A stretch of DNA of 64,000 nt from Nitrospirota bacterium (GTDB lineage Bacteria > Nitrospirota > UBA9217). This document shows positions 8,931 through 37,620 of this stretch, one piece after another (positions within the stretch are counted from its first letter, which is position 1; each line of letters starts with the position of its first letter). The notes under the pieces are model-generated. The model was not told the origin of the DNA and did not search any database. It saw nothing but the letters and a program-made list of their open reading frames with translations. The stretch spans positions 160,001-224,000 of the forward strand of contig CAVVUN010000002.1 of the NCBI GenBank assembly GCA_963751455.1. The letters run 5' to 3'. A program made the translations under genes and the position numbers.

Positions 8931-9039
8931 GCAAAACATTTAGAACAGATTGATCAAGCTGACACCGGAGCTGGGTGAGGGCTAAAAAACGCCACTCAAA
9001 AACCACTCAGCGGCTTAACGATTGATCCATGGAGAAACA

Positions 9040-10720: not shown

Positions 10721-11536
10721 ATGAGAAACATACAAATCTTTATTGCTTTTTTGAAAAAGCTTTATGAGAGCCGCTACATGATACGGATGATGGCGATCCG
10801 TGACTTGAAAGCGGTTTATGTGGGCAGTCTTTTCGGTTTTTTCTGGGCAGTCATAAATCCTCTTGTCCAGCTTGCCATATACGGCATCGTTTTCGGTGTG
10901 CTGTTCAATTCGAGGCCGGACCCGGTATACGGGACGGACAGCTACTTCCTGTTCCTGCTCTGCGGACTCGTACCGTGGCAGTTTTTCGCTCAGACCGTCA
11001 GCGCGTCGACCAGGGTGCTTGTCTCAAACAGCAACCTGATCAAAAAGGCAGTTGGGTTCAATTCGGAGATACTTCCAGTCATAACAGTCCTTAGCAATAT
11101 CATCAGCCATCTCATCGGTTTCGCTCTCCTGCTTGTGATCGTTGTTATTTTCTCGGGAAAGATTTCGCCCGTCACGCCCATCATACTTCTCTATTTGTTT
11201 TTTGTTATTGTATTTGCCGTCGGTATCGGCTGGATTCTTTCGAGTCTCAATGTCTATTTAAGGGACATGCAGCAGGTAGTGGGTCTCTTGACGCTGGCCT
11301 GGATGTTCTTCACGCCCATTTTCTATCCCGCAAGCTTAATCCCCGCGAAATTGGCGCCAGTCGTCAGATTAAACCCTCTGTATCACATGGTCGAGGGATA
11401 TCGGCATGCGATCCTGGCCGGTAGGGTACTGCCTGCAGCTGACATTGCATACATGGCTGTTGTTTCCCTTCTGACCTTCGCCTTCGGCGGGCTGCTTTTC
11501 AGGAGGCTCAAACCGGGGTTTGCGGAAGTGTTGTGA
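10721..11536 (+). CDS. wzm: ABC-2 polysaccharide export permease
   Basis: RDLKAVYVGSLFGFFWAVINPL, TPIFYP, LNPLYHMVEGYR; multiple TM segments. Confidence 0.93.
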   Translation: MRNIQIFIAFLKKLYESRYMIRMMAIRDLKAVYVGSLFGFFWAVINPLVQLAIYGIVFGVLFNSRPDPVYGTDSYFLFLLCGLVPWQFFAQTVSASTRVLVSNSNLIKKAVGFNSEILPVITVLSNIISHLIGFALLLVIVVIFSGKISPVTPIILLYLFFVIVFAVGIGWILSSLNVYLRDMQQVVGLLTLAWMFFTPIFYPASLIPAKLAPVVRLNPLYHMVEGYRHAILAGRVLPAADIAYMAVVSLLTFAFGGLLFRRLKPGFAEVL

Positions 11537-11539
11537 GTC

Positions 11540-11645
11540 TGCATAGCGCAAAGCGCATGGAGCAGAACGCAGGGGGAAGATGCAAAGCGCATAAAGCATG
11601 AGCGAAAAGAGCAAAAAGCAACGCTATGCACCATGCCCCATGCAG
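11540..11645. repeat. Intergenic heptamer-repeat palindrome (GCATAGC/GCAAAGC..GCTATGC/CCATGC)
   Basis: GCATAGCGCAAAGCGCATGGAGC...ACGCTATGCACCATGCCCCATGC; same family as 9657-9678 and the in-frame inserts at 47892 and 51506. Confidence 0.7.
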
Positions 11646-11656
11646 GTTAAGAAACC

Positions 11657-13057
11657 ATGAACGATATAGCAATAAGCGTCAAAAACATAAGCAAAAGCTA
11701 CCGCATGTATCCTTCGCCAAAGGAGAAACTGAAGGAGCTGCTACACCCTTTTGGGAAGAAGTACCACAAGGAGTTCTGGGCGCTCCGTGATGTCTCCTTG
11801 GATGTCAAGAAGGGCGAGTGCATCGGCATTATCGGAAGGAACGGCAGCGGCAAGTCCACGCTGCTGCAAATCATCTGCGGGGTACTTCAGTCAACCTCAG
11901 GTGAAGCAAAGGTTAGCGGCAGAATATCGGCTCTCCTGGAACTTGGGGCCGGGTTCAACCGGGAATTTTCGGGCCGGGAAAATGTCCATATGAACGGCGC
12001 GCTGATGGGCCTCCCCAAAGAGGAGATGGATGAAAAGTTCCAGGCAATCGCGGATTTTGCCGACATCGGCCAGTTCATCGAACAGCCGGTAAAGACATAT
12101 TCGAGCGGTATGTATGTGAGACTTGCATTTGCCTGCGCGGTAAATGTTGATCCGGATATTTTGATTGTCGACGAGGCGCTGTCGGTCGGGGACGAGGCTT
12201 TCCAGCGGAAGTGCTATGCTCGCATCACGAATTTTAAGGAACGGGGCAAGACCATACTTTTCGTTTCTCATTCAGCCGCTGCCATCGTTCAGCTGTGCGA
12301 TAGAGCGGTTCTCTTTGAGCGGGGTCAACTTCTCCTCGAAGGGACGCCGAAACTTGTGGTGTCTAAATATCAACAGCTCATCTATGCGCCTGCTGAAAAG
12401 GCTAAGGAGTTGCGCCAAGAAATAATTGCACTTAATAATTCAAGTGCAAAGAGTGTAGATAATGTCCGAGACAACGCCAAAGAACAAGACAAGGCCGCTC
12501 CAAATAGAAACGATAAATCATCTCTACATGCATACTATGATCCTCATCTTAAGTCTCAGAGTACTATTGAATATGAATCACGCGGAGTCCGGATAAAAGA
12601 CCCCCATATCACGACACTTGATGGGAAAAAAGTGAATGCACTCGTGCGCGGAGTAGAGTACATATATACATATTCTCTCCATTTTGAAAAGGCCGCATAC
12701 AATGTCAGGGCTGGGATGATGATAAAGACCATTAGAGGTTTGGAACTCGGTGGTATAGGCAATCCGACCGATAACGGTATTGAGCATATCAAGGAAGGGG
12801 CTGTTCTGCAGGTGAAGATTAGGTTTAGGTGCAGCCTATTGCCGGGAGTATATTTCATGAATGCAGGTATATTTGGCACCGTCAACGGTAACGAGATCTT
12901 TTTACACCGGATAGTGGATGTAATTATGTTCAGAGTCCAGCCGGAAAAGAGCATCTTTGTGTCCGGAACAATAGATTTTTCTTCGACTGAAGTGGCCCCG
13001 CCGATTGAAATGAGAATGCACGATAATGTAGACCAGAAATTATTGAAAAAGACATGA
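11657..13057 (+). CDS. wzt: ABC polysaccharide export ATPase with C-terminal carbohydrate-binding (Wzt_C-like) domain
   Basis: GRNGSGKST, YSSGMYVRLAF, ILIVDEALSVGD; extra C-terminal beta domain with LLPGVYF. Confidence 0.95.
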   Translation: MNDIAISVKNISKSYRMYPSPKEKLKELLHPFGKKYHKEFWALRDVSLDVKKGECIGIIGRNGSGKSTLLQIICGVLQSTSGEAKVSGRISALLELGAGFNREFSGRENVHMNGALMGLPKEEMDEKFQAIADFADIGQFIEQPVKTYSSGMYVRLAFACAVNVDPDILIVDEALSVGDEAFQRKCYARITNFKERGKTILFVSHSAAAIVQLCDRAVLFERGQLLLEGTPKLVVSKYQQLIYAPAEKAKELRQEIIALNNSSAKSVDNVRDNAKEQDKAAPNRNDKSSLHAYYDPHLKSQSTIEYESRGVRIKDPHITTLDGKKVNALVRGVEYIYTYSLHFEKAAYNVRAGMMIKTIRGLELGGIGNPTDNGIEHIKEGAVLQVKIRFRCSLLPGVYFMNAGIFGTVNGNEIFLHRIVDVIMFRVQPEKSIFVSGTIDFSSTEVAPPIEMRMHDNVDQKLLKKT

Positions 13058-16856: not shown

Positions 16857-18947
16857 GTGAACATACTTTTTTTTAAAAAGTCCATTCCCAGGCCGGATCA
16901 ATTTTCCGGTGACAGAAGATGTTTTGAGATTTTAAGTATGCTGGCAAAGAGGCATAATGTAGATTTCTTCGCTACAGAAGACATTGAAAAGGTCCCTATT
17001 TCTGCAAGGGATCGATATGAAGGAATGCTTAAAGAAATTAATGTGAATGTTATTTATTTAAAGTATTTAAGTATTGGAGAATTATTGTCGAAGAAACAGT
17101 ATGATATCGGTTATTTTGTTTTTTTTACGATTGCCGAGGAACATATGGATACATTCAGAAAGCAGCAGCCCGGATCATTTGTATTTGTTGATTCGGTCGA
17201 TGTTCATTTCTCGAGGGAAAAATTGGCAGTGCAGCTCGGTTTGCTCGATGAAACGGCAGCCATTAAGAATAAAGCGAGAGAATTAAATATTTATAGAAAG
17301 GCCGATGCGGTTATTGTGGTCAGCGACCATGACAAAGAATTGCTTCAAAATGAGAAGAATTTGCCATCCGTTTATATTGTGCCGAACATCGTTCAGGCCA
17401 GGCAAAGGGAAGCAATCGAGAGGGGCAAGGAAATTATTTTCATAGGAGGATACGCATGGCCGCCTAACGTTGATGGAGCGCTATGGTTCGCGAGAGATAT
17501 TTGGCCTCATATTCATAGGGCAGTGCCGGATGCTTTTTTTTCAGTTATCGGGAGCAATCCCACAACAGAAATAAATAATCTTAAAGATGTGCCCGGCATA
17601 AATGTTGTGGGGTATGTACCCGAAACCGCTCCGTTCTTAAACAGAGCCGCAATTTCAATTGCTCCGCTTCGCTATGGGGGGGGGCTGAAAGGCAAAGTGA
17701 ACGAAGCGATGGCGTACGGCGTGCCGGTCGTGACCACTTCGGTGGGCGCACAAGGCTTTAATGCCAAAAACGGCGAACATTTGATAATTGAGGATAAGCC
17801 GATTGCATTTGCGGACGCGTGTATAGATTTGTTAAATAATCCTCAAAAACAAAGAAGTATTGGATTGGCAGGTCAGGAACTGAACAGCAGGATATGCAGT
17901 CCTGAAATAGCAAATATGAAGCTTTCCAGCATGATTGGGGATGTCGAAAAATTGAGGATAAAAGCAATGATGAAAGAAAACCAGCACATCTTTAGAATCC
18001 AAGACGAAATGCTTGGAAAACTGAAACGGCTTGAAACGGAACTTTCTGAAAAAGACAAAACAATATCCGATTTAACAAACAGCAGGAGTTGGAAATTGAC
18101 AGCGCCCCTCAGGGCTGTACATGAACTGTATCAACATAAAAATGACGGGCTTATAAAGCAAATAAAGAATTTTGTAAGGATTCAAACTAATAAGAATGAA
18201 AAAAATCTTAATAAAATAGCTGCTTTGAAAAATAAGCATATAGGAGAAATTGGTTTTATTATAGGCAATGGACCGAGCGTTAGAATAGAGGATTTGGAAA
18301 AGCTTAAGAATACGATAACATTTTGCGCAAATCGCTTTTATCTTGCATATAACAAGATGAAGTTCAGGCCTAAATACACACTAATATGTGATAACCAGGT
18401 CATCAGGGATGACGGAAATGACATAGTTTCGAGGAGTGAAGGGATTAAAATAGTTTTTTATGATGCGAAAGACCCGAATCTTCCGAGAATAAAGGGAAAA
18501 CACATATCAATTATACGCAGAGAACCCCGGCCCATGCCGTTTTCGAAAGACCCTGGAGATTTTGTTCCGAGCGGAGGCTCAGTTGTCATTGCGGCCATGC
18601 AGATGGCTTATTTCATGGGAATAAGAACAATGTATCTTTATGGGATCGACCATACCTTCAAGTACGAGAAGGTCGAATCGCAAGACGTCTGGACTTCAGC
18701 GAAAGGCGATGACAACCATTTCATAAAAAATTACAGGGGTGGAAAGAACTGGTGTCCGCCGGACCTGAAATACATAGAGGACTCCTTTTCCGAGTGCAGG
18801 AAATTTGCCGATAAAAACGGCGTGGTCATAAAGAATGCGACCCGTGGAGGGAAGCTGGAAATATTTGAACGAATCGATTTCGACGAGATCGAAAAATTAA
18901 GCTCTCGAAATGCAGGAACGTTGCCCATAAAAGCGGCATGGTCATAA
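16857..18947 (+). CDS. GT4 glycosyltransferase + SWKLTAPLR linker + DUF115/Maf-like (sialyltransferase-like) domain
   Basis: APLRYGGGLKGKVNEAMAYGVPVVTT; C-terminal IIGNGPS..NRFY..YFMG..YLYGID..KNATRGGKLEIFER. Confidence 0.85.
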   Translation: MNILFFKKSIPRPDQFSGDRRCFEILSMLAKRHNVDFFATEDIEKVPISARDRYEGMLKEINVNVIYLKYLSIGELLSKKQYDIGYFVFFTIAEEHMDTFRKQQPGSFVFVDSVDVHFSREKLAVQLGLLDETAAIKNKARELNIYRKADAVIVVSDHDKELLQNEKNLPSVYIVPNIVQARQREAIERGKEIIFIGGYAWPPNVDGALWFARDIWPHIHRAVPDAFFSVIGSNPTTEINNLKDVPGINVVGYVPETAPFLNRAAISIAPLRYGGGLKGKVNEAMAYGVPVVTTSVGAQGFNAKNGEHLIIEDKPIAFADACIDLLNNPQKQRSIGLAGQELNSRICSPEIANMKLSSMIGDVEKLRIKAMMKENQHIFRIQDEMLGKLKRLETELSEKDKTISDLTNSRSWKLTAPLRAVHELYQHKNDGLIKQIKNFVRIQTNKNEKNLNKIAALKNKHIGEIGFIIGNGPSVRIEDLEKLKNTITFCANRFYLAYNKMKFRPKYTLICDNQVIRDDGNDIVSRSEGIKIVFYDAKDPNLPRIKGKHISIIRREPRPMPFSKDPGDFVPSGGSVVIAAMQMAYFMGIRTMYLYGIDHTFKYEKVESQDVWTSAKGDDNHFIKNYRGGKNWCPPDLKYIEDSFSECRKFADKNGVVIKNATRGGKLEIFERIDFDEIEKLSSRNAGTLPIKAAWS

Positions 18948-23645: not shown

Positions 23646-24190
23646 AGAAAACTCTTATGCTTTTCTGCTTATTCTCCTTCATTACAGCAAATGTCTTTGC
23701 CGAAGATTTAACCGGTTATAAGCAGATCATCGAAAAGACGCTCAAATATCCCAGGGAGGCTGTTTACCCGTTGCCCGCAATCCTCCCGGACCCCACGAAA
23801 ACTGAAGAAGAGAACGTCGAATATATGAATGTGGCAAAGGGGCTCGAAAGGATGGGAGAAGTGATGTTATCCCGCAAGGGGGGGCAGGTCGTCCTCAAGC
23901 CCAGCCAAGGGAACGAGGATGTGATCGGAAGAGAAGAGGATATGAATTACAATGTGGTTGGGTTGAACCTTGTAATGGGCAACTGGTCGATTCAGACGGC
24001 TAACCTCGCTAAGAATGATTCAAAATATGTGGTATCCGGGAAAAAAATATTAAAACCCTCGAGGCTTTATGACAAATTAAGTGCTGTTTTTTCCCACGCA
24101 TCTTTGAAGGAATATTCCACGGCCAACATGAACTGGATAGTAGAGAAAGTCGGGGAAAAATACAGGGTGATCGAGCGATACGCGAAATAA
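23642..24190 (+). CDS. Secreted hypothetical protein
   Basis: Signal peptide MKKTLMLFCLFSFITANVFA; overlaps the upstream stop. Confidence 0.7.
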   Translation: MKKTLMLFCLFSFITANVFAEDLTGYKQIIEKTLKYPREAVYPLPAILPDPTKTEEENVEYMNVAKGLERMGEVMLSRKGGQVVLKPSQGNEDVIGREEDMNYNVVGLNLVMGNWSIQTANLAKNDSKYVVSGKKILKPSRLYDKLSAVFSHASLKEYSTANMNWIVEKVGEKYRVIERYAK

Positions 24191-24219
24191 AAGCCCTGCC
24201 GCTTTTGAAGGAACCGCCA

Positions 24220-25707
24220 ATGCTCTTTAATTCATACGAATACATATTTCTTTTTCTTCCGGTCACTTTGCTTGTTTATTTCGCGCTGAATCTGCTCAAG
24301 AAGACCTATCTTTCGAGAGCATGGCTCATAGTCGCTTCGCTTTTTTTTTACAGCTGGTGGGACATACATAACCTGCCGATAATCCTTGCAAGTATTTGTG
24401 TTAATTATTTCATCGGGTTAAGGATCGTCAATGCCTCCGGTCCTAAAACCCGCAATCTCTTTTTTCTCACAGGGCTTTCTTTCAATGTCCTTCTGCTGAT
24501 GTACTATAAGTACACGGATTTTCTTCTCACCAATATCAACGCAGTCTTTGGAAGCCATTTCGAGCTGCTCCATAAGGCATTGCCTCTGGGCATTAGTTTC
24601 TTCACGATCACCCAGATAGCGTATCTTTTTGACGCGAACAGGCAGACGGCGAGGGAGTACAATTTCGCCAATTACGCGCTCTTTGTTTCTTTCTTTCCGC
24701 ATCTATTGGCAGGTCCAATCCTGCACCATAAGGAGATGATGCCGCAGTTCGACCGGTTGAGGAACAAGGTCTTTAATCCTGAGAACCTTTCCAAGGGACT
24801 GGTGCTTCTCTCGATAGGCATTATCAAAAAAGTGCTCATCGCGGACCATCTCGCGGTCTGGGCCGACAACGGGTTCGACGTTTCGAGCTCGCTCACCATG
24901 GTTGAGGCGTGGATAACCTCCCTCTCATATACCTTCCAGATATATTTTGATTTCTCTGGTTATACTGATATGGCTCTTGGCGCGGCACTGCTGTTCAATA
25001 TTCACTTGCCGCTTAATTTCAACTCTCCATACAAGGCAGTCAATATTCAGGACTTCTGGAGAAGGTGGCACATGACCCTGAGCAGGTTCCTGCGTGATTA
25101 CATTTACATACCTCTTGGGGGCAACAGGAGGACGTCCCTGAGGACCAACCTGAACATATTCATTACCTTTGTAATCGGAGGCATCTGGCACGGTGCCGGG
25201 TGGGGCTTTTTGATCTGGGGGATACTGCATGGCGTTGCCTATATGGTGCATCGCTTCTGGCAGGACATGAACATCAAGGTGGGCCGCTTTTTGGCCATTT
25301 TCCTGACTTTTAATTTTGTCAATCTCACCTGGCTGTTTTTCAGGGCCAAGTCCCTGAAAGATGCTGTTAAGGTTTTGAAAGGCATGTTCGGCCTGAACGG
25401 CTCCGGAATCGAAGATTTCTGGAATTCGTTTTTTTCGTTCCTCGTCTCGGGGATGAGTCTGCTCCAGGAGGAAGAAAAATTCCGGGTCGTCAGTACTCTC
25501 CTTGGTTATCTTCAGGGCTCGGTAGACAAGATATTTGTTCTATTGTTGTGCCTTATTGTCTGTCTTTTCGCGAAGAATTCGAACGAAAGGGTCAGGGAGT
25601 TTATTCCCTCGTGGAACACGGCGTTCATGTTTGCACTTGGCACGATTTTCGCTATTTTGGCTATAAAAATAGATGCGCCCGCGAAATTTCTCTATTTTGA
25701 TTTTTAA
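24220..25707 (+). CDS. MBOAT family O-acyltransferase (AlgI/DltB-like)
   Basis: LPLGISFFT, FQIYFDFSGYTDMA, DFWRRWHMTLSRFLRDYIYIPLGGNR, GIWHGA. Confidence 0.95.
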   Translation: MLFNSYEYIFLFLPVTLLVYFALNLLKKTYLSRAWLIVASLFFYSWWDIHNLPIILASICVNYFIGLRIVNASGPKTRNLFFLTGLSFNVLLLMYYKYTDFLLTNINAVFGSHFELLHKALPLGISFFTITQIAYLFDANRQTAREYNFANYALFVSFFPHLLAGPILHHKEMMPQFDRLRNKVFNPENLSKGLVLLSIGIIKKVLIADHLAVWADNGFDVSSSLTMVEAWITSLSYTFQIYFDFSGYTDMALGAALLFNIHLPLNFNSPYKAVNIQDFWRRWHMTLSRFLRDYIYIPLGGNRRTSLRTNLNIFITFVIGGIWHGAGWGFLIWGILHGVAYMVHRFWQDMNIKVGRFLAIFLTFNFVNLTWLFFRAKSLKDAVKVLKGMFGLNGSGIEDFWNSFFSFLVSGMSLLQEEEKFRVVSTLLGYLQGSVDKIFVLLLCLIVCLFAKNSNERVREFIPSWNTAFMFALGTIFAILAIKIDAPAKFLYFDF

Positions 25708-25711
25708 AAAA

Positions 25712-26827
25712 ATGAAATCACGAAGAATATACGCCAGATGGTCTCTCCTGTATTCCGGGTTAATATTGCTGCCTTTTTTCTTTAATCTTGTTATTGACCC
25801 TTATGGCTACTTTCAGGTTGTCGACATCGCTCGTCTTAACAGCAATAAATCCGAAGTGCTCTCCGAGTATTCGACCAAGTATTACTTTGTGAGCCGCGCA
25901 AAGCCTGACGTGCTGATGCTTGGCACATCGAGGATGTTGACCCATGATCCTCACGATGTTCAGAAATACACGGGAGGCAGGGCATATAATCTGGCCTTAT
26001 CGGGTTCCAATATGTACGAGCAATATGAGTATCTGAAATATATGACCGATAACGATCCTATCCGTTACGTGGTGATGGGGCTGGATTTTTTTTCCTTCAA
26101 CCCTGATAACAAAAATAAGCCGGGGTTCGTGAGAAAGCGATTCGATGGTTTCTATTACAGAGATTATGTGGACGGACTTATCGGGATTGAGACTTTGAAG
26201 GCAAGCGTTCTGACACTGAAGAACAGTATGCTTGATTCCTGCACTTCAATGAACTACAAGGAGGGATACACCACATGGTGCAGCAGGGAAAAGGCCGTCA
26301 CGGATGCGGGAGAAGGCGTTATACTCAGGGCGATGAAAAGCTCCCTGAAGACTTTCTCAACTGACAAGGCAGCATACAACTCTGAGAAATTCAGGAAGCC
26401 GGATTCCATTGCAGACAATCTGGCTTATTTTAAAAAAATTGTGGAGCTTTGTTACTCTAAAGGAATAATGCTCAAGGTTTACATCAGCCCGATTTACGAG
26501 GCCCAGTTCGATCTCATTCATGCGATGGGCCTTGGCGATTCGTACGGCGGCTGGAAGAGAGAGATAGCGCGTCTCGTAGATTTTTACGATTTTACGGGAC
26601 GGAACTCCGTTACGGTTAATAAAGACCTCTGGTGGGACAGCTCCCATATCAGAAAGGAGGGCGGCAAAATTATCTTTGCCCGCCTCTTTGAGGACAAAAA
26701 GACGGAACTGCCGCCGGATTTTGGCGTCCATGTTTCATCTGAAAATATTGAGGAGCATATTAGGTCTCTTGCTCTACAGGTTGAAAAGAAGGATTTGTCC
26801 GATATCCTGGAGCTAAACGGGTATTGA
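25712..26827 (+). CDS. MBOAT-associated SGNH-like protein
   Basis: N-terminal TM + IDPYG, LGTSR, YNLALSG, WWDSSH. Confidence 0.75.
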   Translation: MKSRRIYARWSLLYSGLILLPFFFNLVIDPYGYFQVVDIARLNSNKSEVLSEYSTKYYFVSRAKPDVLMLGTSRMLTHDPHDVQKYTGGRAYNLALSGSNMYEQYEYLKYMTDNDPIRYVVMGLDFFSFNPDNKNKPGFVRKRFDGFYYRDYVDGLIGIETLKASVLTLKNSMLDSCTSMNYKEGYTTWCSREKAVTDAGEGVILRAMKSSLKTFSTDKAAYNSEKFRKPDSIADNLAYFKKIVELCYSKGIMLKVYISPIYEAQFDLIHAMGLGDSYGGWKREIARLVDFYDFTGRNSVTVNKDLWWDSSHIRKEGGKIIFARLFEDKKTELPPDFGVHVSSENIEEHIRSLALQVEKKDLSDILELNGY

Positions 26828-26901: not shown

Positions 26902-27375
26902 ATGTTTACTGCATTCCTTGAAGATGTGACGGTTTGGCAGCCCGTTTTGCAGCATCGTGTGTTGAGAAAGTCTCTTGCGTGGCTTGAAAAAAATGCGGCG
27001 ATTGCCGAGCTCGGCAACCATTTGTTGGGCGAGTCTGACTGGTATGCGAATGTGCATGGTTATACAACCTTGCCCGAGGCTGAGTGTAGATGGGAAAATC
27101 ACACGAAAACTGTCGACATCCAATATCTGGTCGCCGGCAGCGAAGGGATAAGATGGACCGCCTCACGACGACTGGGGACCCCGAACCGCTATACCGAAGA
27201 AAAGGACCGGGAGGAGTTCGATGCATCGTATTGCACGTCCCTTTTGCATCTGCAGCCCGGCATGTTTGCCATATTTCTGCCGGGCGATGCCCACTGTCCG
27301 AAAATCACATTGTCGAAGCCTGAGAACTTACGAAAAGTCGTGGTGAAGATTCCGGTGCGCTTGCTCAAGCAATAA
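26902..27375 (+). CDS. YhcH/YjgK/YiaL (DUF386, NanQ-like) protein
   Basis: WENHTKTVDIQY..G.E, FAIFLPGDAHCP, RKVVVKI. Confidence 0.9.
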   Translation: MFTAFLEDVTVWQPVLQHRVLRKSLAWLEKNAAIAELGNHLLGESDWYANVHGYTTLPEAECRWENHTKTVDIQYLVAGSEGIRWTASRRLGTPNRYTEEKDREEFDASYCTSLLHLQPGMFAIFLPGDAHCPKITLSKPENLRKVVVKIPVRLLKQ

Positions 27376-27426
27376 ATGACCGATCCGTTATCTGCCGATG
27401 AGATTTAAAAGGAGCATTTTATATCC

Positions 27427-28179
27427 ATGAATATAGATTTCACCGGCCAGACCGTTCTTGTTACCGGCGCTACCCGAGGCATTGGAGCTGCAATTTCAAC
27501 TGCCTTTGAAGCAGCCGGCGCATCGTTGCTCCTTACCGGGACAGATCAGAAGCAGATTGACGAATTGAACCGGCGCAACGCCCAACAGGGCAGGCAAAAT
27601 GTTTGCTGGTTGCAGGCTGATTTCTCATCAGCGGCATCAATAGCATCATTTCTTGAACTGATTGCGCAGAGGTCCCCCATACACGTGCTGATCAACAACG
27701 CCGGCACCAACCGTATCAACCTGATCGATGAGATCCGCGCCGAGGACCTTGATATGCTGCTCTCTATTAACCTGCGCGCCCCTCTCCTGTTATGCAAGGC
27801 AGCAAGCCGGATCATGAAAGAGATGCATTATGGCCGTATTGTAAACATTGCCTCGATATGGAGTGTAATTACCAAACCCGGACGAGTGGTCTATTCTGCA
27901 ACCAAATCGGGATTAGCCGGCATGACCAGGTCGGTTGCTGTCGATTTGGCGCCATACGGCATTCTGGTTAATGCCGTGTCGCCGGGATTTGTTAATACTG
28001 AGTTGACGTATTCTTCGCTGCCCGCCGAGGAGAGAGAGAAGATAGCCGGCCAGGTGCCGCTAGGCCGGTTTGCCGACCCTGAAGAAATCGCGCGCATGGT
28101 GTTGTTCCTCTCAAGCAACATGAATTCTTACCTGACGGGGCAGAACATTGTGGTTGATGGAGGGTTTGCGTGCGTTTAA
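27427..28179 (+). CDS. SDR family NAD(P)-dependent oxidoreductase
   Basis: TGATRGIG, NNAG, YSATK, VSPGFVNT, VDGG. Confidence 0.93.
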   Translation: MNIDFTGQTVLVTGATRGIGAAISTAFEAAGASLLLTGTDQKQIDELNRRNAQQGRQNVCWLQADFSSAASIASFLELIAQRSPIHVLINNAGTNRINLIDEIRAEDLDMLLSINLRAPLLLCKAASRIMKEMHYGRIVNIASIWSVITKPGRVVYSATKSGLAGMTRSVAVDLAPYGILVNAVSPGFVNTELTYSSLPAEEREKIAGQVPLGRFADPEEIARMVLFLSSNMNSYLTGQNIVVDGGFACV

Positions 28180-29288
28180 AAAGCTTAAAGGTGCAATCGT
28201 ACAAGCATACTTATGAAGTGCGATTTGAAGAGGATTTCGCCGCAGCTTTGAAGGAACGCCTTATGCCCGGCGATGTGATTACGGTGGATGCCACGGTCTT
28301 GAAGCTGTACCATGAACGACTTGCTCCCGTACTGAAAGCGGCCCGTCACTTTGTTGTAGAACCCTCGGAAGATCAGAAAAGCTATCAGGGGATAGAACCG
28401 CTTATCGACCATCTCATAGAATCCGGATTTCGCAAAAATAACCGTTTGATTGCAATTGGGGGAGGCATTACCCAGGATATTACCGCTTTCACCGCTTCAA
28501 TTCTATTTCGAGGCGTGGACTGGTATTTTTTTCCTACCACCCTCCTTGCGCAATGCGATAGCTGTATCGGCAGCAAGACGTCGATCAATTTCGGGAAAAG
28601 TAAAAATCAACTCGGGAATTTTTATCCGCCAAAAGAGATTGTAATCGATCCTGGTTTTCTTGAAACCTTGTCTCCCCTGGATTTTCGCTCCGGGATGGGA
28701 GAGATGCTGCATTACTATCTGGTTTCCGGCGAGGAAGATTTTCAGCGGATGCTCCGTGAATATGACAGGGCGTTCGAAGACAGGGCAGTGCTGCACGAGC
28801 TCATTTATCACAGCTTGGATTTCAAGCGCAGTTACGTGGAACGTGATGAATTCGATCAAGGCCCTCGCAATGTCTTCAATTATGGTCATTCCTTCGGGCA
28901 CGCGATTGAAACATTGACCGATTATACGGTACCCCACGGCATTGCCGTATCCATCGGCATGGACATGGCAAATTATCTCTCCGTAAAACTGGGATATATC
29001 AGCAATGAACTATATGGCCGAATGCATGCGTTGCTCAGGAAAAACTGGGGTAATATACGGCTGTCCGACATCGCAGTGAATGATTTTATTCAGGCGCTGG
29101 CAAAAGATAAAAAAGCTGTCGGTTCCGAACTCAGGGTAATTCTTACCAGGGGGATCGGACAGATGTTCAAAACGCCGCTTCCTGTAACGCCTGAAGTTGC
29201 CGCCTGGCTTACCGAATACTTTGCGGAGTTCGATCGCCTGGCTCAGAGCAAATCCGCTGGCGAGCGATCCACTTTTCAGATCACGTGA
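28170..29288 (+). CDS. Divergent 3-dehydroquinate-synthase-like sugar-phosphate cyclase
   Basis: IGGGITQD, PTTLLAQCDSCIGSKTSIN, KNQLGNFYPP, NYGHSFGHAIE, PHGIAVSIGM, DKK. Confidence 0.88.
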   Translation: MRLKSLKVQSYKHTYEVRFEEDFAAALKERLMPGDVITVDATVLKLYHERLAPVLKAARHFVVEPSEDQKSYQGIEPLIDHLIESGFRKNNRLIAIGGGITQDITAFTASILFRGVDWYFFPTTLLAQCDSCIGSKTSINFGKSKNQLGNFYPPKEIVIDPGFLETLSPLDFRSGMGEMLHYYLVSGEEDFQRMLREYDRAFEDRAVLHELIYHSLDFKRSYVERDEFDQGPRNVFNYGHSFGHAIETLTDYTVPHGIAVSIGMDMANYLSVKLGYISNELYGRMHALLRKNWGNIRLSDIAVNDFIQALAKDKKAVGSELRVILTRGIGQMFKTPLPVTPEVAAWLTEYFAEFDRLAQSKSAGERSTFQIT

Positions 29289-29327
29289 TTTTCCGCAAAT
29301 TTAACAAGAGGAGGGTTTTTTAATTCT

Positions 29328-30107
29328 ATGCATGATGTGGCCGCTATGATCCCCGTTCTGCTCGGCAGCACGCGTGTGCCTGATAAAAATATTATTCTGG
29401 TGGATGGCAAGGTCTTATGCGCGTATACCATTGAAGCCTGTAAGACTTCCGGGGTTTTCAGTTCCATCCATCTGAATTCGGAAGGCGAGATATTCAGATC
29501 CATTGCCGAACAGGAATCGGTCATGTTTCATAAGCGTCCGCCGGAGCGGGGTGGAAGCGCCTGTCGCCAGAAAACCAAATCCCGCGATTGCGCAGGGAAG
29601 CGCTGTGTAATCAACGAGCATTATTTATATGACTTCATGACCAGCGGCACACAGGCCGAATACGTCTGCCAGGTAAACGCCACTTCGCCCTTGATAAGAC
29701 CGGAAACCATAAAAGCCTTTGTGCAGACATTACAGCAGGGCGATTATGACAGTCTGTTCGCCACGCTCGAGATACGGGCGGAAAGTTTTTTCGGCGGGAA
29801 ACCTGTTTCTTTTTCAAGAAAATATAAGCGTCCTTCAAACGAATTAGAACCGATTTCTGCTTTTTGCTGGGCAATAGCCGGCTGGCGTCGACAGGCGTTT
29901 ATTGATGCCTACGATGCCGATGACCCTGATAAGGATGGCCCCGCGTTTGTCGGAAAACTGGGGCTGTTTCCTATTGATGAGCGGGAAGCCCTGGATATCG
30001 ATCAATGGAGTACCCTCGACGTTGTTGAAAAATTTCTGATCGCCCGGAGAACGAAAGCGGCGCGAACCTGGAACTATATTGACGGCCGCACCATTACACG
30101 GTCATAG
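29328..30107 (+). CDS. NeuA/KdsB-family cytidylyltransferase with a Cys-rich insertion
   Basis: IPVLLGSTRVPDKNI, QVNATSPLI, EALDID. Confidence 0.85.
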   Translation: MHDVAAMIPVLLGSTRVPDKNIILVDGKVLCAYTIEACKTSGVFSSIHLNSEGEIFRSIAEQESVMFHKRPPERGGSACRQKTKSRDCAGKRCVINEHYLYDFMTSGTQAEYVCQVNATSPLIRPETIKAFVQTLQQGDYDSLFATLEIRAESFFGGKPVSFSRKYKRPSNELEPISAFCWAIAGWRRQAFIDAYDADDPDKDGPAFVGKLGLFPIDEREALDIDQWSTLDVVEKFLIARRTKAARTWNYIDGRTITRS

Positions 30108-30257
30108 CAATGCTTTGTCAGACCCGTCTTTTGAGGGCTGCGAGGTGCGGATAGCAGGCATTATCGTAATATCGAGGGGCAGAACAGTGTCCTGATAGAA
30201 AAAAATTGTCAATTTTAGTGCAAAACTAATGGTAGAATATGGCGCAGAAGGTCTGAT

Positions 30258-31064
30258 ATGAAAATATGGATGAACACAAATACCCTCGACGGTTATATTG
30301 ACGATCTGGAAAAGACTGCTGATCCAGCCGATGCGGAGATCGCCCTTCTCGGGAGCAAGAAAATGGATCTTCAGCGGTTTCCCAATCTTAAAGGCATTTT
30401 CCGCGCGGGCGTTGGAAAGGACAATGTGCCGGTCAGTGAAGCAGAGAAACGAGGGATCGCGGTCGGTTTCCCTTCGCAGTCTACGATAGAGATAATCTAT
30501 AATGAAACTGCCGCATTTACCTGCGGATTAATTTTTCGAATGGCGTATTCCAATGTGGGAACGCTCACTCCATGGCTAAAAGTGCCGAGGACGGCCTTTA
30601 GCAACCTGAACCTGCTGGTTATCGGCAAAGGCAACATAGGGGGCAGAGTGATAAAGCTGATGCAGCCTTTTTTAAAGGTGAGGTCTTTTGATCTCTGCGA
30701 AAATGGAGAAAATGAACTAAAGGCGCTTGTACTTGAAGCCGACATAATAACCCTGCATATTCCATTGAACGCCCAGACGAGGAATTTCATCGAGGAGGAA
30801 AAGCTTTCCTGGATGAAAGAAGGCTCCATTCTTATCAACGCGGCCCGCGGTCCTATCGTATCTGAAGATGCTCTGTATAGTGCGATCGAAAGAGGGCGCC
30901 TGCGGGCGGCTTTCGATGTTTATTGGGAGGAGCCCTATGAAGGCAAACTCAAGAAGTTCTATCCCGAAAGGTTCCACATGACACCTCATGTGGCCAGCAC
31001 ATGCGCTACCTTTCTTGAGGAGACAGCAAAGGATCTTCACAACTTTATTGAAAGGATTGGATGA
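30258..31064 (+). CDS. D-isomer-specific 2-hydroxyacid dehydrogenase
   Basis: RAGVGKDNV, IGKGNIG, LHIPL, INAARGPIV, DVYWEEP, TPHVAS. Confidence 0.92.
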   Translation: MKIWMNTNTLDGYIDDLEKTADPADAEIALLGSKKMDLQRFPNLKGIFRAGVGKDNVPVSEAEKRGIAVGFPSQSTIEIIYNETAAFTCGLIFRMAYSNVGTLTPWLKVPRTAFSNLNLLVIGKGNIGGRVIKLMQPFLKVRSFDLCENGENELKALVLEADIITLHIPLNAQTRNFIEEEKLSWMKEGSILINAARGPIVSEDALYSAIERGRLRAAFDVYWEEPYEGKLKKFYPERFHMTPHVASTCATFLEETAKDLHNFIERIG

Positions 31065-31065
31065 T

Positions 31066-32052
31066 ATGACCTACAAGCATACCATAAGCACGGACGATAT
31101 TACGGATATCATGATCCACCCCGAGCCTGTTTTTGGCGATCTGAAAGCGCGGTGGAAAGAGTACCTTTATGAAAAAAGCACCGAGGAAGACTGGACATCT
31201 GTGAAGCGCTGCATTGCGTGTGATGGAGATGACATCAGGCCTTTTTTCCTTATATGGAATTATCGGTATGATCGTTGTCGCAATTGCGCATCGGTATTTC
31301 TCAATCCGCAGCCTGCGGAAGCACTCCATTCAAAGGCATTCTACAAGTCTCCAGTCTCTCAACTTATAAACTCGTCTGCATATCAGAATTATCAGGCGAC
31401 CCGTTTTCAAAAAGTGATAAAACCTCTTCTCTCCGAATTAATAAAAACTGCAAAAAAAGAGCGTCTCCAGGTGCTTGAAGTCTTCGGAAGAAATGCCCAT
31501 GTCAGGGACTATCTCCTCAAAGAGAAAAAGGTGGAGAAATTTCTCAGGTATGCCGCGCCCCTGGATGACGAAACCGGCGGTTCCGTGCGCATTAAAACGC
31601 TCGAGAGCGTCGCTGACGGTTCATCGGATCTGATCTTGCTTTTCATGTGTGTGGAGCAAATGCTGTCACCTCGCGCAATGTTTGAGTCGCTTGCCCGGAA
31701 GCTTGCTCATGGAGGTCTTCTGGTCGTTCTTTCGAGACTCGGGAGCGGATTGGATGTTCAGGTGCTTCGCGGCGATCATCCCTCCATCTTCCCCCTGGAA
31801 CACATTAATCTCTTTTCCGTTGAAGGGTACGAGCACCTCTGCAAAAAAGCGAATCTTGACATCCTTGAGTTGAGCACTCCGGGACTTCTGGATGCCGGCT
31901 ATCTTCAGCGATATTATCAAGAACATCCTGAAGATAATAATTTGTTTTCTTATATATTCAACCATCGTTCAGCTGCGGATATCCAGAAATTTCAGCAGTT
32001 TGTCCAGGAAATGCGCCTTAGTTCGGCACTGAGATTAATCTGCAAAAAATAA
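31066..32052 (+). CDS. Methyltransferase-like protein with an N-terminal CxxC..CxxC Zn ribbon
   Basis: CIAC..CRNC..FLNPQP; PLEHINLFS; STPGLLD. The SAM motif is degenerate (VLEVFGRN). Confidence 0.7.
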   Translation: MTYKHTISTDDITDIMIHPEPVFGDLKARWKEYLYEKSTEEDWTSVKRCIACDGDDIRPFFLIWNYRYDRCRNCASVFLNPQPAEALHSKAFYKSPVSQLINSSAYQNYQATRFQKVIKPLLSELIKTAKKERLQVLEVFGRNAHVRDYLLKEKKVEKFLRYAAPLDDETGGSVRIKTLESVADGSSDLILLFMCVEQMLSPRAMFESLARKLAHGGLLVVLSRLGSGLDVQVLRGDHPSIFPLEHINLFSVEGYEHLCKKANLDILELSTPGLLDAGYLQRYYQEHPEDNNLFSYIFNHRSAADIQKFQQFVQEMRLSSALRLICKK

Positions 32053-32063
32053 AGGAGCGGTAA

Positions 32064-32651
32064 ATGGGAGATGTAAAAATTTCGGCGTATGCTCATACCT
32101 ATTTTGATATGTTGCATAATCATTTAAAATGTCTGGATACCGCCATATTCGACCGTATTGTTCGAGAGATTGAAAGAATAAGGAAAGAAGACCGCGTTGT
32201 TTATATAATCGGCAACGGAGGAAGTGCCTCGATTGCGTCCCATATGGCAAACGACCTGGGTGTCGGCATCAGAAGGACCGGAGTAAAACCTCTTAAAATA
32301 ACCAGCCTGAACGACAATATGAGCGCAATTACAGCACTTGGGAACGATTACGGATATGATTCAATTTTTTTAGAGCAGCTGAGGCCTATTCTCCATCCTA
32401 AAGATCTTTTGATTGCTTTTTCTGTAAGCGGCAACTCTCCAAATATTATTAAGGCTGTCGAATTTGCCAAACAACTGGGTGTAATTGTTGTCGGCTGCAG
32501 CGGTTTCGACGGTGGGAAGCTTAAGAAAATTTGTGATGTTTCCTTCCACGTAGAGAATGAGAAGGGTTACTACGGAGTGCCGGAGGATGCATTCATGATT
32601 CTTGATCATCTGATCTACACATATTACAAATTCGAGCACTACAGGAGCTAG
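32064..32651 (+). CDS. SIS-domain sugar-phosphate isomerase (GmhA-like)
   Basis: IGNGGSASIASH, TALGNDYGYD, SVSGNSPNI, GFDGGKL. Confidence 0.9.
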   Translation: MGDVKISAYAHTYFDMLHNHLKCLDTAIFDRIVREIERIRKEDRVVYIIGNGGSASIASHMANDLGVGIRRTGVKPLKITSLNDNMSAITALGNDYGYDSIFLEQLRPILHPKDLLIAFSVSGNSPNIIKAVEFAKQLGVIVVGCSGFDGGKLKKICDVSFHVENEKGYYGVPEDAFMILDHLIYTYYKFEHYRS

Positions 32652-32653
32652 TT

Positions 32654-33679
32654 ATGTCGCTTCGAGATTCTGTGAGACCAGCCATAAAAATCGGCATTGT
32701 GGGTATGGGAAAGATGGGCAAGATAAGAGCCCGGGAGATTAAGAGTTGCCCATATACAGAACTGCGCGCGGTATCGGATGTCAACCCTAAAATGTTATCT
32801 GAATATGAAGTACCCGCATTCAGTCAGCCCCAGGAGATTCTAAATCAAGATCTCGACGCTCTATTCGTCTGCACGTATAATTCGGCAGCCCCGGATCTGA
32901 TCGTCGGAGCACTTGAAAGGGGCCTGCATGTTTTTTGCGAAAAGCCGCCAGGACGATGTGTCGCGGATGTACTCAGGATCCGGGAAGCGCATGAGAAGCA
33001 CCCGGACTGTAAGGTGAAATTCGGATTCAACCATCGCTATCACTATTCGGTTATCGAAGCCAAGTCCATGATTGACAGCGGTTTGTTCGGCAGGATATTG
33101 TGGCTGCGAGGCGTTTATGGAAAGGCCGGAGGCGTCGAATTTGAAAGCAACTGGCGGAGCGACAAGACGCAGGCGGGGGGCGGCATCCTGCTCGATCAGG
33201 GAATCCACATGCTTGATCTCTTCCGGTATTTTGCGGGAGATTTCGATGAGATCAAGAGCATGATCTCCACATCGTACTGGAACATTCCCGTTGAGGACAA
33301 TGCCTTTGCCGTTATGAGGAATTCAAAGGGGCAGATAGCCTCGATTCACTCCTCGTCAACTCAGTGGAAGCACCGGTTTTCTTTGGAAATCGCCCTTCAG
33401 GAAGGCTATATCAACCTGAACGGAATACTCTCATCGACCCGCAGTTACGGTGAAGAGACTCTCACCGTTGCAAAAAAACAATTTGAAGACACAGCGTCTG
33501 CGTTCGGAAAGCCAAGAGAAGAGATGATATATTTCGACCGTGATGATTCATGGCGATTAGAGGTAGAAGAATTCATCGCCGCTATCCGGGGTGAGAAGCG
33601 CGTTGAGCACGGTACGATTGAGGACGCACTTGCCGTGATGAGACTTGTTGAAGAAATATACAGGAACTCTGGACGCTGA
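32654..33679 (+). CDS. Gfo/Idh/MocA family oxidoreductase
   Basis: GIVGMGKMG, HVFCEKP, GFNHRY, AGGGILLDQGIHMLDL. Confidence 0.93.
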   Translation: MSLRDSVRPAIKIGIVGMGKMGKIRAREIKSCPYTELRAVSDVNPKMLSEYEVPAFSQPQEILNQDLDALFVCTYNSAAPDLIVGALERGLHVFCEKPPGRCVADVLRIREAHEKHPDCKVKFGFNHRYHYSVIEAKSMIDSGLFGRILWLRGVYGKAGGVEFESNWRSDKTQAGGGILLDQGIHMLDLFRYFAGDFDEIKSMISTSYWNIPVEDNAFAVMRNSKGQIASIHSSSTQWKHRFSLEIALQEGYINLNGILSSTRSYGEETLTVAKKQFEDTASAFGKPREEMIYFDRDDSWRLEVEEFIAAIRGEKRVEHGTIEDALAVMRLVEEIYRNSGR

Positions 33680-33695
33680 AGGGATACATCGCGAA

Positions 33696-34368
33696 ATGTC
33701 CGGAATTGTCTCGCTCAGTTATGCACTGTCTAATAATACGGCATATTATGGCGGAAGTCGCCTGAACCTTGAATCCCGCGTGAAAGAAACGGGCAATAAG
33801 TTCACTCGTGAGACGAATTTATGTTTTTCCTCACATTCGGGGACGCACTTGGATTTTCCTTCGCACTTCTATCGGGATGGAAAGAAGGGAAATGATTATC
33901 CGCTTGATTTTTTTATCTTTCATAGGGCGGCCGTCGTTGAGTGCAACCTTCTTGATGCTGATGGGAAGATCGATGGATCTTTAATGAAGGGATTTGCCCT
34001 GGAGCAGGGCCTCGAATTGATTCTTGTGAAAACGCACTTTTGCTCAATTAGAGGTCAGGAGAGAATACTGGAAGGATTCACCTGTCGTGAGTGCGGATTT
34101 CGCACGCGACCTGAGAGCTGGCTTTCCCAAGCTGCGGATGATTGGCTTCGATCTTATTTCGGTTACATCTCAGCGGGACAAAGAGGAAGGGCGAAGGGCG
34201 CACCTGGGCTTCCTTGATGAATCAGGCGGCAGGGAAATACTTCTTCTTGAGGATGCCGACTTGAATGTCGTTTCGCGTGAGACAATGTTCCAAAAAGTTA
34301 TAGTCGCGCCGCTTTTCTTCGAAAAGATGGAGGGGGCGCCCTGTACGGTAATCGCCGAGATTTCCTGA
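33696..34368 (+). pseudogene. Cyclase-family (kynurenine formamidase-like) metallohydrolase split by a +1 frameshift near 34060
   Basis: HSGTHLDFPSHF in frame 1; EYWKDSPVVS..IGFDLISV..LLLED..EGAPCTVIA in frame 2. One extra base in CAGGAGAGAATAC; may be a sequencing error. Confidence 0.8.
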
Positions 34369-37543: not shown

Positions 37544-37620
37544 CGCCAAATAAATTTGATAATACTTTTATTTTTTGTAATGTGACGAACCATATTAAAG
37601 GCTGTTTGAACGGAGGAAAT

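What the first reader, a model, noticed from the sequence alone, without database searches (positions are those of the whole stretch)
26902..34368. Sugar-phosphate cyclase + cytidylyltransferase cassette inside a surface-glycan locus: candidate pathway to an undescribed nucleotide-activated cyclitol or carba-sugar
Seen: nine co-oriented genes encoding a YhcH/NanQ-like protein, an SDR, a DHQ-synthase-like cyclase, a NeuA-like cytidylyltransferase, a 2-hydroxyacid dehydrogenase, a Zn-ribbon methyltransferase-like protein, a GmhA-like SIS isomerase, a Gfo/Idh/MocA oxidoreductase and a cyclase-family hydrolase. They lie among GTs and Wzm/Wzt, and I see no NeuB/KdsA-type synthase and no other aro gene in the window. 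Established: DHQS-superfamily enzymes cyclise C6/C7 sugar phosphates to carbocycles, GmhA acts on sedoheptulose-7-P, and NeuA/KdsB enzymes CMP-activate ulosonates. Inference: the cassette makes a carbocyclic or otherwise unusual acidic sugar, adjusts it with three oxidoreductases, cytidylylates it and supplies it to a glycan transferase. I do not recognise this gene set as a characterised pathway.
Basis: partly seen in the sequence, partly recalled or inferred. Interest (0 to 1): 0.85.

Follow-up and report, generated by a model that had tools for sequence, protein, structure and literature searches.

The report
Repurposed AroB in a CMP-sugar pathway
These nine genes are one copy of a widespread, untested gene set that likely builds a new sialic-acid-like surface sugar by oxidising a seven-carbon sugar phosphate, and its copy of the ring-forming enzyme AroB likely removes the phosphate without closing a ring, since related gene sets carry a plain phosphatase in its place.

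Summary
The nine co-oriented genes are real; the ninth (cyclase-family hydrolase) is frameshifted. The 'cyclase' belongs to TIGR04425, an uncharacterised AroB paralogue; the genome has a separate canonical aroB. It keeps the DHQS carboxylate and phosphate residues that the sedoheptulose-7-P cyclase ValA lacks, so its substrate is probably a 2-ulosonate 7-phosphate. The cassette recurs across many phyla. Key result: among 30 loci found through the Gfo gene alone, 13 carry the AroB-like gene (with its SDR), 10 carry a phosphatase instead, 2 both, 5 neither; one pair swaps at the same position with 46-61% identical neighbours. A sialyltransferase-fold (Maf/CstII) domain lies 8 kb upstream. Best reading (0.55): SIS, Gfo, lactonase and 2-hydroxyacid dehydrogenase oxidise heptose-7-P to a heptulosonate-7-P without any NeuB/KdsA; the AroB-like enzyme eliminates phosphate without cyclising and the SDR reduces the methyl ketone, giving CMP-7-deoxy-heptulosonate for the surface glycan. 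No step has been assayed; ten literature searches found no characterisation.

The parts
26902..27375 (+). YhcH/NanQ-like cupin; predicted anomerase or ring-opening helper for the ulosonate
   Evidence: TIGR00022 80.6 bits (cut-off 45.5); NanQ NF040884 90 bits, below 160; in 10 of 37 long related loci, a Cupin_2 protein or domain in others
27427..28179 (+). SDR reductase, partner of the AroB-like enzyme; predicted to reduce the C6 ketone
   Evidence: present in 14 of 15 Gfo-anchored loci with the AroB-like gene and 1 of 15 without
28170..29288 (+). AroB paralogue (TIGR04425); predicted non-cyclising ulosonate-7-phosphate phospholyase
   Evidence: TIGR04425 450 bits > 400, TIGR01357 274 < 305; DHQS fold; 31% identical to the genome's aroB; carboxylate, phosphate and metal residues kept
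29328..30107 (+). NeuA-like cytidylyltransferase; predicted CMP-ulosonate synthetase
   Evidence: PF02348; PDB relatives are CMP-Neu5Ac synthetases; far below PseF cut-off; one of only two PF02348 genes in the genome
30258..31064 (+). D-2-hydroxyacid dehydrogenase; predicted to oxidise aldonate-phosphate C2 to the 2-oxo acid
   Evidence: PF02826/PF00389; in 28 of 30 Gfo-anchored loci
31066..32052 (+). Zn-ribbon methyltransferase-like protein with a degenerate SAM motif; accessory, possibly inactive
   Evidence: PF13489 weak; CxxC pairs kept, glycine-rich motif lost
32064..32651 (+). GmhA-like SIS isomerase (H..D / ED..H signature); predicted sedoheptulose-7-P to heptose-7-P
   Evidence: TIGR00441 101 bits, below 209; same signature in a Jannaschia plasmid SIS beside GHMP kinase, nucleotidyltransferase and HAD-IIIA; 28 of 30 Gfo-anchored loci
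32654..33679 (+). Gfo/Idh/MocA oxidoreductase; predicted aldose-phosphate 1-dehydrogenase
   Evidence: PDB relatives equally distant (inositol, glucose-fructose, 3-keto types); 6-phosphogluconolactonase inside 6 of 73 such loci
33696..34368 (+). Cyclase-family (KynB-like) metal hydrolase, frameshifted near 34063; predicted lactonase, dispensable
   Evidence: PF04199; two-frame alignment with 13 intact homologues; in 7 of 30 Gfo-anchored loci
16857..18947 (+).
   Evidence: PF01973; profile hits CstII sialyltransferase at E 1e-7; model matches Maf 5mu5 and CstII 1ro7; same family beside the cassette in 11 of 37 long loci
10721..13057 (+). Wzm/Wzt ABC exporter of the surrounding glycan locus (context)
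   Evidence: PF01061, PF00005, PF14524

Best explanation
The cassette likely makes a CMP-activated 7-deoxy-hept-2-ulosonic acid, a short sialic-acid-like sugar, by a route that would need no NeuB or KdsA synthase, and the AroB paralogue likely acts in it as a non-cyclising phospholyase. Predicted order: SIS turns sedoheptulose-7-P into heptose-7-P; Gfo oxidises C1 to the lactone; the lactone opens (cyclase-family hydrolase, 6-phosphogluconolactonase in other loci, or spontaneously); the 2-hydroxyacid dehydrogenase oxidises C2, giving a hept-2-ulosonate 7-phosphate; the AroB-like enzyme oxidises C5, eliminates phosphate and re-reduces as DHQS does, but the enol is protonated to a C6 methyl ketone instead of attacking C2; the SDR reduces C6; YhcH supplies the right anomer; the NeuA-like enzyme adds CMP; the Maf/CstII-like domain at 16857-18947 puts the sugar on the Wzm/Wzt-exported glycan. 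Shown: genes, families, residues, co-occurrence and the phosphatase swap. Inferred: every reaction, the chain length and the 3-OH.
For: (a) Phosphatase swap: of 30 loci found through the Gfo gene, AroB-like only 13, IMPase/HAD phosphatase only 10, both 2, neither 5; Fisher p 0.008, kin not independent. Phosphatase loci fall at four separate places on the Gfo tree. L239 and L223 share gene order and 46-61% identity in six genes, then carry IMPase versus SDR plus AroB-like. Five phosphatase genomes and three plasmid records have no TIGR04425 member. So the Gfo/2HAD/SIS core likely makes a phospho-sugar that the same CMP-transferase families accept after either way of dephosphorylation. (b) Carboxylate site kept: window K219, R233, N237 and K136 are invariant in all 146 classified homologues, K314 in all but two truncated ones, as in bacterial DHQS; ValA has M, D and H at three of these positions (read by eye). 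Residue roles are recalled. (c) 6-phosphogluconolactonase in 6 of 73 and transaldolase in 5 of 73 Gfo loci fit lactone-phosphate chemistry and sedoheptulose-7-P supply. (d) A SIS with the same signature sits in an NDP-heptose gene set. (e) Sialyltransferase-fold acceptor enzyme needs an anomeric carbon (established chemistry). (f) Sister copies (C9 of this genome; 34 of 80 viral loci) pair with SDR, an aldolase or NeuB-like synthase, a ThDP enzyme and CDP-keto-sugar genes; such ThDP enzymes use open hydroxylated 2-oxo acids as donors (PMC9306805), which dehydroquinate is not.
Against: No reaction was tested. Nothing in the active site marks loss of the aldol step; every residue DHQS uses is kept, and the released enol pyranose is recalled to cyclise spontaneously. 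No residue separates enzymes from Gfo-type, phage CT-type and ThDP-type loci, and these contexts interleave on the tree, so a 3-hydroxy substrate is not shown. In phage CT-type loci SIS is present in 38 of 39 but Gfo in only 1 of 39, so a SIS there cannot be feeding Gfo (it is a different subfamily). An HpcH aldolase occurs in 17 of 30 Gfo loci and is unexplained by this route. Gfo's nearest solved relatives do not pick C1 over C3 oxidation. The M. marinum caryophyllose cluster as described in PMC9306805 has an aldolase and no mention of an AroB-like gene.
Confidence: 0.55

Rival explanations
1. Acyclic product but another feed: the AroB-like enzyme and SDR deoxygenate a 3-deoxy-ulosonate phosphate (DAHP or an epimer, from the shikimate pathway or an HpcH aldolase; possibly another chain length), and SIS, Gfo and 2HAD supply the aldehyde or epimerise the product. 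The result would be a CMP-3,7-dideoxy-heptulosonate.
For: Same active site in ThDP-type loci, where an aldolase or NeuB-like synthase makes a 3-deoxy acid, and in phage loci lacking Gfo/2HAD. HpcH in 17 of 30 Gfo loci. CMP-transferases and sialyltransferases normally use 3-deoxy donors (established).
Against: The window and its genome have no HpcH. The Gfo/2HAD/SIS core persists with a plain phosphatase, where DAHP alone would need none of them. Embedded 6-phosphogluconolactonases point to aldose-phosphate oxidation.
Confidence: 0.22
2. True cyclase: the enzyme closes a carbocycle (a hydroxy-dehydroquinate), the SDR reduces it to a hydroxy-quinate, and the NeuA-like enzyme cytidylylates its tertiary alcohol or carboxylate for transfer to the glycan.
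For: All DHQS catalytic positions are kept and the fold is DHQS; NCBI names the family 'cyclizing' (a hypothetical equivalog). Class III or DegT aminotransferases accompany many copies, as in aminocyclitol pathways (recalled). Carbocyclic LPS sugars of unknown origin exist (caryose, PMC9092360; bradyrhizose, PMC4743980; passages read).
Against: The same CMP-transferase and transferase families serve phosphatase variants that cannot form a ring. Transfer from a tertiary carbocyclic carbon by a CstII-fold enzyme has no precedent that I know. ThDP-type copies need an open 2-oxo acid. No kinase is present to make a cyclitol phosphate for CDP-type activation.
Confidence: 0.15
3. The AroB-like gene is a spare dehydroquinate synthase and the CMP-transferase activates a standard Kdo/Neu/Leg/Pse made elsewhere.
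For: 31% identity to the genome's AroB with the same catalytic set; the genome has KdsB-type and weak class I synthase matches elsewhere.
Against: A canonical aroB passing TIGR01357 sits with aroK/aroC-like ORFs on C15. The family forms its own clade, is patchy (3 of 301 genomes in the phylum), and tracks the SDR and sugar genes. The genome's only NeuB-like gene belongs to the ThDP cassette on C9.
Confidence: 0.04

Closest known systems
NCBIfam TIGR04425, 'AroB-related putative sugar phosphate phospholyase (cyclizing)'
   Same: The window protein passes the cut-off (450 > 400); so does the second copy on C9 (402).
   Different: The family is a hypothetical equivalog with no tested function found (0 papers for the accession); the evidence here argues against 'cyclizing'.
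3-Dehydroquinate synthase AroB (EC 4.2.3.4; TIGR01357)
   Same: Fold, NAD/Zn site and ulosonate-7-phosphate binding residues.
   Different: Below the AroB cut-off (274 < 305); family-wide G-to-Q and mostly E-to-D changes, K-to-H in this subclade; glycan context with an SDR instead of aroK/aroC.
EEVS (ValA), DDGS and DOIS (BtrC) sugar-phosphate cyclases
   Same: Same superfamily; secondary-pathway paralogues of AroB.
   Different: More distant than AroB (E 6e-30, 2e-20, 2e-28 versus 2e-52); ValA lacks three residues kept here; substrate here is predicted to carry a carboxylate.
CMP-Kdo / CMP-Neu5Ac pathways (KdsD, KdsA, KdsC, KdsB; NeuB, NeuA) with Maf/CstII transferases
   Same: SIS isomerase, dephosphorylation step, PF02348 CMP-transferase and sialyltransferase-fold acceptor enzyme.
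   Different: No PEP-condensing synthase; two dehydrogenases and a lactonase stand in its place; phosphate is removed by a phosphatase in some loci and by AroB-like plus SDR in others.
Caryophyllose-type acyl-branched sugar pathways (YerE/ErwE/MMAR_2332; PMC9306805)
   Same: Sister AroB-like copies sit with a ThDP enzyme, SDR, aldolase or NeuB-like synthase and CDP-keto-deoxy-glucose genes; a methyl-terminated C7 2-oxo acid is the donor implied by caryophyllose's structure (my derivation).
   Different: That is the C9 cassette, not the window's; the paper proposes an aldolase on a deoxy-aldehyde and does not mention an AroB-like enzyme.

Membership tests
TIGR04425 | HMM score above curated cut-off 400 | tested here: met
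   450.3 bits
TIGR04425 | Occurs beside sugar genes in a genome with a separate aroB (context rule recalled, not read) | tested here: met
AroB / DHQS (TIGR01357) | Score above 305 | tested here: not met
   273.9 bits; the C15 gene scores 404.4
AroB / DHQS (TIGR01357) | Metal, phosphate and carboxylate residues | tested here: met
   two or three second-shell changes; numbering and roles recalled
AroB / DHQS (TIGR01357) | Converts DAHP to dehydroquinate | not testable with these tools
   needs an assay
EEVS / DDGS (sedoheptulose-7-P cyclases) | ValA-type active-site fingerprint | tested here: not met
   window has K219, N237, K314 where ValA has M, D, H; the full 14-site list (Kean 2014) was not available
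GmhA (TIGR00441) | Score above 209 and H..E / QE..H motifs | tested here: not met
   101 bits; H..D / ED..H. The genome's canonical GmhA-like gene is on C8. 'Works like GmhA' is supported by context
CMP-nonulosonate pathway (Neu/Leg/Pse) | Dedicated NeuB/PseI/LegI synthase | tested here: not met
   none in the window; the only NeuB-like gene is in the C9 ThDP cassette; its close relatives score about 120-136 bits against cut-offs of 340-400
CMP-ulosonate pathways in general | PF02348 cytidylyltransferase plus sialyltransferase-fold transferase | tested here: met
CMP-ulosonate pathways in general | CMP attached at the anomeric C2 hydroxyl of a 2-keto acid sugar | not testable with these tools
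   needs an assay
NanQ anomerase (NF040884) | Score above 160 | tested here: not met
   90.3 bits; passes the wider YhcH family TIGR00022

The most novel reading that the evidence does not exclude
The AroB paralogue does cyclise, and the cassette makes the first CMP-activated carbocyclic 'carba-ulosonate' (a hydroxy-quinate), which a sialyltransferase-fold enzyme attaches to a surface glycan as a hydrolysis-proof mimic of the sugar acid that the phosphatase variants make; swapping two genes would then toggle a glycan between sugar and carbocycle.
Probability: 0.12. Interest if true: 0.9.

Novelty: new variant of a known kind. Interest (0 to 1): 0.63.

Why it matters
If the best reading holds, two things are new. 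First, a route to sialic-acid-like sugars by stepwise oxidation of an aldose phosphate, where every known bacterial route I recall uses a PEP or pyruvate condensation. Second, a new reaction for the dehydroquinate-synthase family: phosphate elimination without ring closure, which with an SDR gives a terminal methyl group, the ulosonate counterpart of a 4,6-dehydratase. It would assign a function to TIGR04425, correct its 'cyclizing' name, and predict undescribed sugars on the surfaces of many bacteria and in phage-encoded glycans. The natural phosphatase swap gives a ready control pair from cultured, harmless organisms, so the question is directly testable with purified enzymes and glycan NMR. 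The cassette is not unique to this window; earlier reports in this scan describe other copies.

Tried and rejected
Read check of the frameshift: no run was listed, so it is unresolved. Plasmid and phage record searches with the AroB-like protein returned only 29-36% identity hits, apparently canonical aroB. Looking for a named carrier with a solved glycan: the S. fredii SMH12 plasmid has the phosphatase variant beside capsule-synthesis genes but no SMH12 K-antigen structure appeared in the passages read. Testing whether M. marinum's caryophyllose cluster has an AroB-like gene: not answered by the papers held (Rombouts 2009 not held). My idea that HpcH and the cyclase-family hydrolase exclude each other was dropped: they co-occur in L225, L226, L227, L229, L231, L233. 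A search for active-site residues that separate the three cassette types found none. The ESM Atlas gave only DHQS-family clusters. The promoter/terminator scan was uninformative. Sedoheptulose-7-P as direct substrate (EEVS-like) was rejected on residues. A Dha-type route (C7 oxidation) was rejected because Gfo and 2HAD persist where C7 would be deoxy. Literature searches with nothing on this cassette: 0 papers; 14 listed, one Leptospira locus description; 1, unrelated; 13, none relevant by listing; 0. The library lacks most subscription journals; bioRxiv supplements (for example the Leptospira gene table) could not be seen and may bear on the Leptospira link.


Full report
1. Observation. The nine ORFs are at the stated coordinates on the + strand, tightly packed. 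Family scans confirm YhcH, SDR, DHQS-like, PF02348 cytidylyltransferase, D-2-hydroxyacid dehydrogenase (2HAD), methyltransferase-like, GmhA-like SIS, Gfo/Idh/MocA and PF04199 hydrolase. The last gene is frameshifted near 34063 (13 of 13 intact homologues align over two frames); no reads were listed. The methyltransferase-like protein has lost its glycine-rich SAM motif, as has one of eight aligned homologues. Wzm/Wzt, GT2/GT4 and WbsX genes surround the cassette.

2. The 'cyclase'. It passes TIGR04425 (450 bits, cut-off 400) and fails the AroB model (274, cut-off 305). The genome has four DHQS-domain genes; the one on C15 passes the AroB model (404 bits) and lies beside ORFs that I recognise by their N-termini as aroK and aroC. 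TIGR04425 is patchy: 3 of 301 genomes of the phylum, this one included. A tree of 85 sequences (35 canonical-like rows left out) puts the glycan-associated copies in one clade (support 0.88) beside canonical AroB. The model has the DHQS fold (pLDDT 91.5). Window residues R114, D130, K136, N146, E178, K219, R233, N237, H240, H244 and H256 are invariant in all 146 context-classified homologues, K314 in all but two truncated ones; 14 unclassified rows were not counted. They match bacterial DHQS. ValA, which cyclises sedoheptulose-7-P, has M, D and H at the positions of K219, N237 and K314 (read by eye). The roles of these residues in binding carboxylate and phosphate are recalled; the paper with the full fingerprint was not held and a term search found none. 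Inference: the substrate is a 2-ulosonate 7-phosphate.

3. Three contexts. From 37 genome loci, 80 metagenome loci of which many were canonical aroB, and 80 viral loci: (C) with CMP-transferase, SIS, Gfo and 2HAD, as in the window: in 37 loci of at least 14 kb, SDR 37, CMP-transferase 35, Gfo 34, 2HAD 30, SIS 26, HpcH 14, Maf-like 11, YhcH 10, ThDP 0; (T) with a ThDP enzyme: in 9 such loci SDR 9, ThDP 9, CMP-transferase, SIS, Gfo and 2HAD 0 (I assigned the types from the tree and gene content, so these counts are partly circular); (P) phage loci with CMP-transferase, SIS (38 of 39), SDR (33) or DegT (6), class III aminotransferase (26), Gfo in 1 of 39. Of 80 viral loci, 39 are CT-type, 34 ThDP-type, none both, 7 neither. 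This genome carries one C and one T cassette.

4. The natural swap. Searching plasmids with the SIS protein gave a Leisingera aquaemixtae locus with Gfo (46% identical to the window's), methyltransferase-like, SIS, inositol-monophosphatase, NeuA-like, 2HAD and Maf-like genes but no SDR or AroB-like gene. I then collected loci through the Gfo gene alone: plasmids, viral contigs and four genome samples (3 of 401, 15 of 401, 3 of 300 and 5 of 301 genomes matched, each count including the centre genome). After dropping two loci below the Gfo score threshold and one duplicate contig, 30 remained: AroB-like only 13, IMPase/HAD only 10, both 2 (each with a duplicated 2HAD and CMP-transferase), neither 5 (three short phage loci, one at a contig edge, one with an AroB-like gene about 9 kb away); Fisher p 0.008, or 0.002 for the 21 with full flanks; kin are not independent (phosphatases confirmed). 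The SDR goes with the AroB-like gene (14 of 15 versus 1 of 15); 2HAD 28, SIS 28 and CMP-transferase 27 of 30 are common to both. Phosphatase loci sit at four separate places on the Gfo tree. L239 and L223 share gene order and 46-61% identity over six genes and differ by IMPase versus SDR plus AroB-like after 2HAD. Five phosphatase genomes have only canonical-range AroB scores (220-264 bits) and three plasmid records none. Earlier scan notes reported a similar swap in phages and one gave the same overall reading; they are leads, not support, and I did not check their particular phage pairs.

5. Mechanism. The swap shows that AroB-like plus SDR and a phosphatase are alternative gene sets for one slot. 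The simplest inference is that Gfo, 2HAD and SIS build a phosphorylated 2-keto acid sugar; hydrolysis leaves C7-OH, elimination plus reduction leaves C7-H. Supporting the oxidative build: 6-phosphogluconolactonase in 6 and transaldolase in 5 of 73 Gfo loci; a SIS of the same H..D / ED..H signature in an NDP-heptose gene set of Jannaschia CCS1; recalled precedents for 2HAD enzymes acting on aldonate phosphates (PdxB, KguD). Supporting an open, anomeric product: the Maf-like domain at 16857-18947 matches CstII sialyltransferases by profile (E 1e-7) and Maf/CstII by fold; T-type copies serve ThDP enzymes whose relatives use hydroxylated 2-oxo acid donors (PMC9306805, main text parts 1-2 of 3 read and supplement searched). 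Predicted product: CMP-7-deoxy-hept-2-ulosonate (D-altro-derived if from sedoheptulose). Confidence 0.55 for the whole route, about 0.75-0.8 for an acyclic deoxy-ulosonate of some kind.

6. Against. Nothing was assayed. No residue marks loss of the aldol step, and none separates C, P and T enzymes, which interleave on the tree; position 181 is K in 46 of 46 T, H in 28 of 57 C and 36 of 43 P. So 3-hydroxy versus 3-deoxy is open. The phage SIS (a separate subfamily) persists without Gfo. HpcH in 17 of 30 loci is unexplained; it is absent from this genome. Gfo's solved relatives include both C1 and C3 oxidisers at similar distance. The published caryophyllose scheme does not mention an AroB-like gene. 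Aminotransferases beside many copies fit a methyl ketone and a cyclohexanone equally well. Carbocyclic LPS sugars with unknown biosynthesis exist (PMC9092360, PMC4743980; passages read).

7. Comparison and novelty. Member of TIGR04425; not a member of AroB, EEVS, GmhA, NanQ or the Neu/Leg/Pse pathways by the tests listed; works like a CMP-Kdo pathway in which the synthase is replaced by two oxidations and the phosphatase by a lyase-reductase pair. Ten searches of the held library found no characterisation; most subscription journals are not held. A Leptospira preprint lists the same gene mix upstream of rfb without interpreting it (10.1101/771931, passages read). Other papers seen as passages only: PMC4426668, PMC12395582, PMC12247030, PMC4881576, PMC12409901; PMC4148318 had no matching passage.

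8. Verdict. Real, conserved, uncharacterised. New variant of a known kind (CMP-ulosonate biosynthesis) with two likely new reactions. Interest 0.63.

Noticed in passing
G000:C9:307679-316677 (outside the window; L002): A second TIGR04425 gene (402 bits) with RfbF/RfbG/RfbH-like genes, a divergent NeuB-like synthase, a ThDP enzyme and an SDR: a likely caryophyllose-type long-branched sugar cassette. The same set recurs in bacteria and in 34 of 80 viral loci, with NeuB-like, HpcH-like, DapA-like or HMGL-like aldolases interchanged.
   Followed up: partly
G000:C9:171542-172912 (L003): A fourth DHQS-domain gene of the PRK06203 type (500 bits) that lacks several DHQS substrate residues in the alignment; function not studied.
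   Followed up: no
L212:5914-13316 (Leisingera aquaemixtae plasmid NZ_CP081063); also L213, L214, L227, L234-L236, L238, L239, L242: Phosphatase variant of the cassette (Gfo, SIS, IMPase or HAD, CMP-transferase, 2HAD, transferase): itself an undescribed pathway, predicted to give the 7-hydroxy sugar; in S. fredii SMH12 it lies beside capsule-synthesis genes.
   Followed up: yes
L128-L191 (viral contigs): Phage cassettes with CMP-transferase-cupin, SDR, AroB-like, a distinct SIS subfamily, class III aminotransferase (26 of 39) and sialyltransferase-like genes but no Gfo/2HAD; in six loci a DegT aminotransferase stands where the SDR is, implying a ketone product.
   Followed up: partly
window 21086-26827: AlgI-like MBOAT with two AlgX/AlgJ-like SGNH proteins and a DUF1574-like protein directly upstream of the cassette: a likely glycan O-acylation module.
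   Followed up: no
window 9022-9642 and 13791-14693: APS kinase and an unassigned ORF with a sulfotransferase-like N-terminal motif (seen by eye; no Pfam hit): the glycan may be sulfated.
   Followed up: no
window 35910-37373 and 40324-41738: An IS with a DDE_Tnp_1_4 transposase and IS21-type istA/istB pieces inside the glycan locus.
   Followed up: no
window 37582-40170 and 9736-10596: An 862-aa collagen-repeat protein whose C-terminal part closely resembles the 286-aa ORF at 9736 (seen by eye).
   Followed up: no
bioRxiv 10.1101/771931 (Leptospira Hardjo locus upstream of rfb): The text lists 6-phosphogluconolactonase, phosphoheptose isomerase, KdsB-like, HpcH aldolase and inositol monophosphatase genes, the same gene mix as this cassette family; TIGR04326/TIGR04331 Leptospira-type transferases sit beside several related loci. 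Whether an AroB-like gene is there was not seen.
   Followed up: partly
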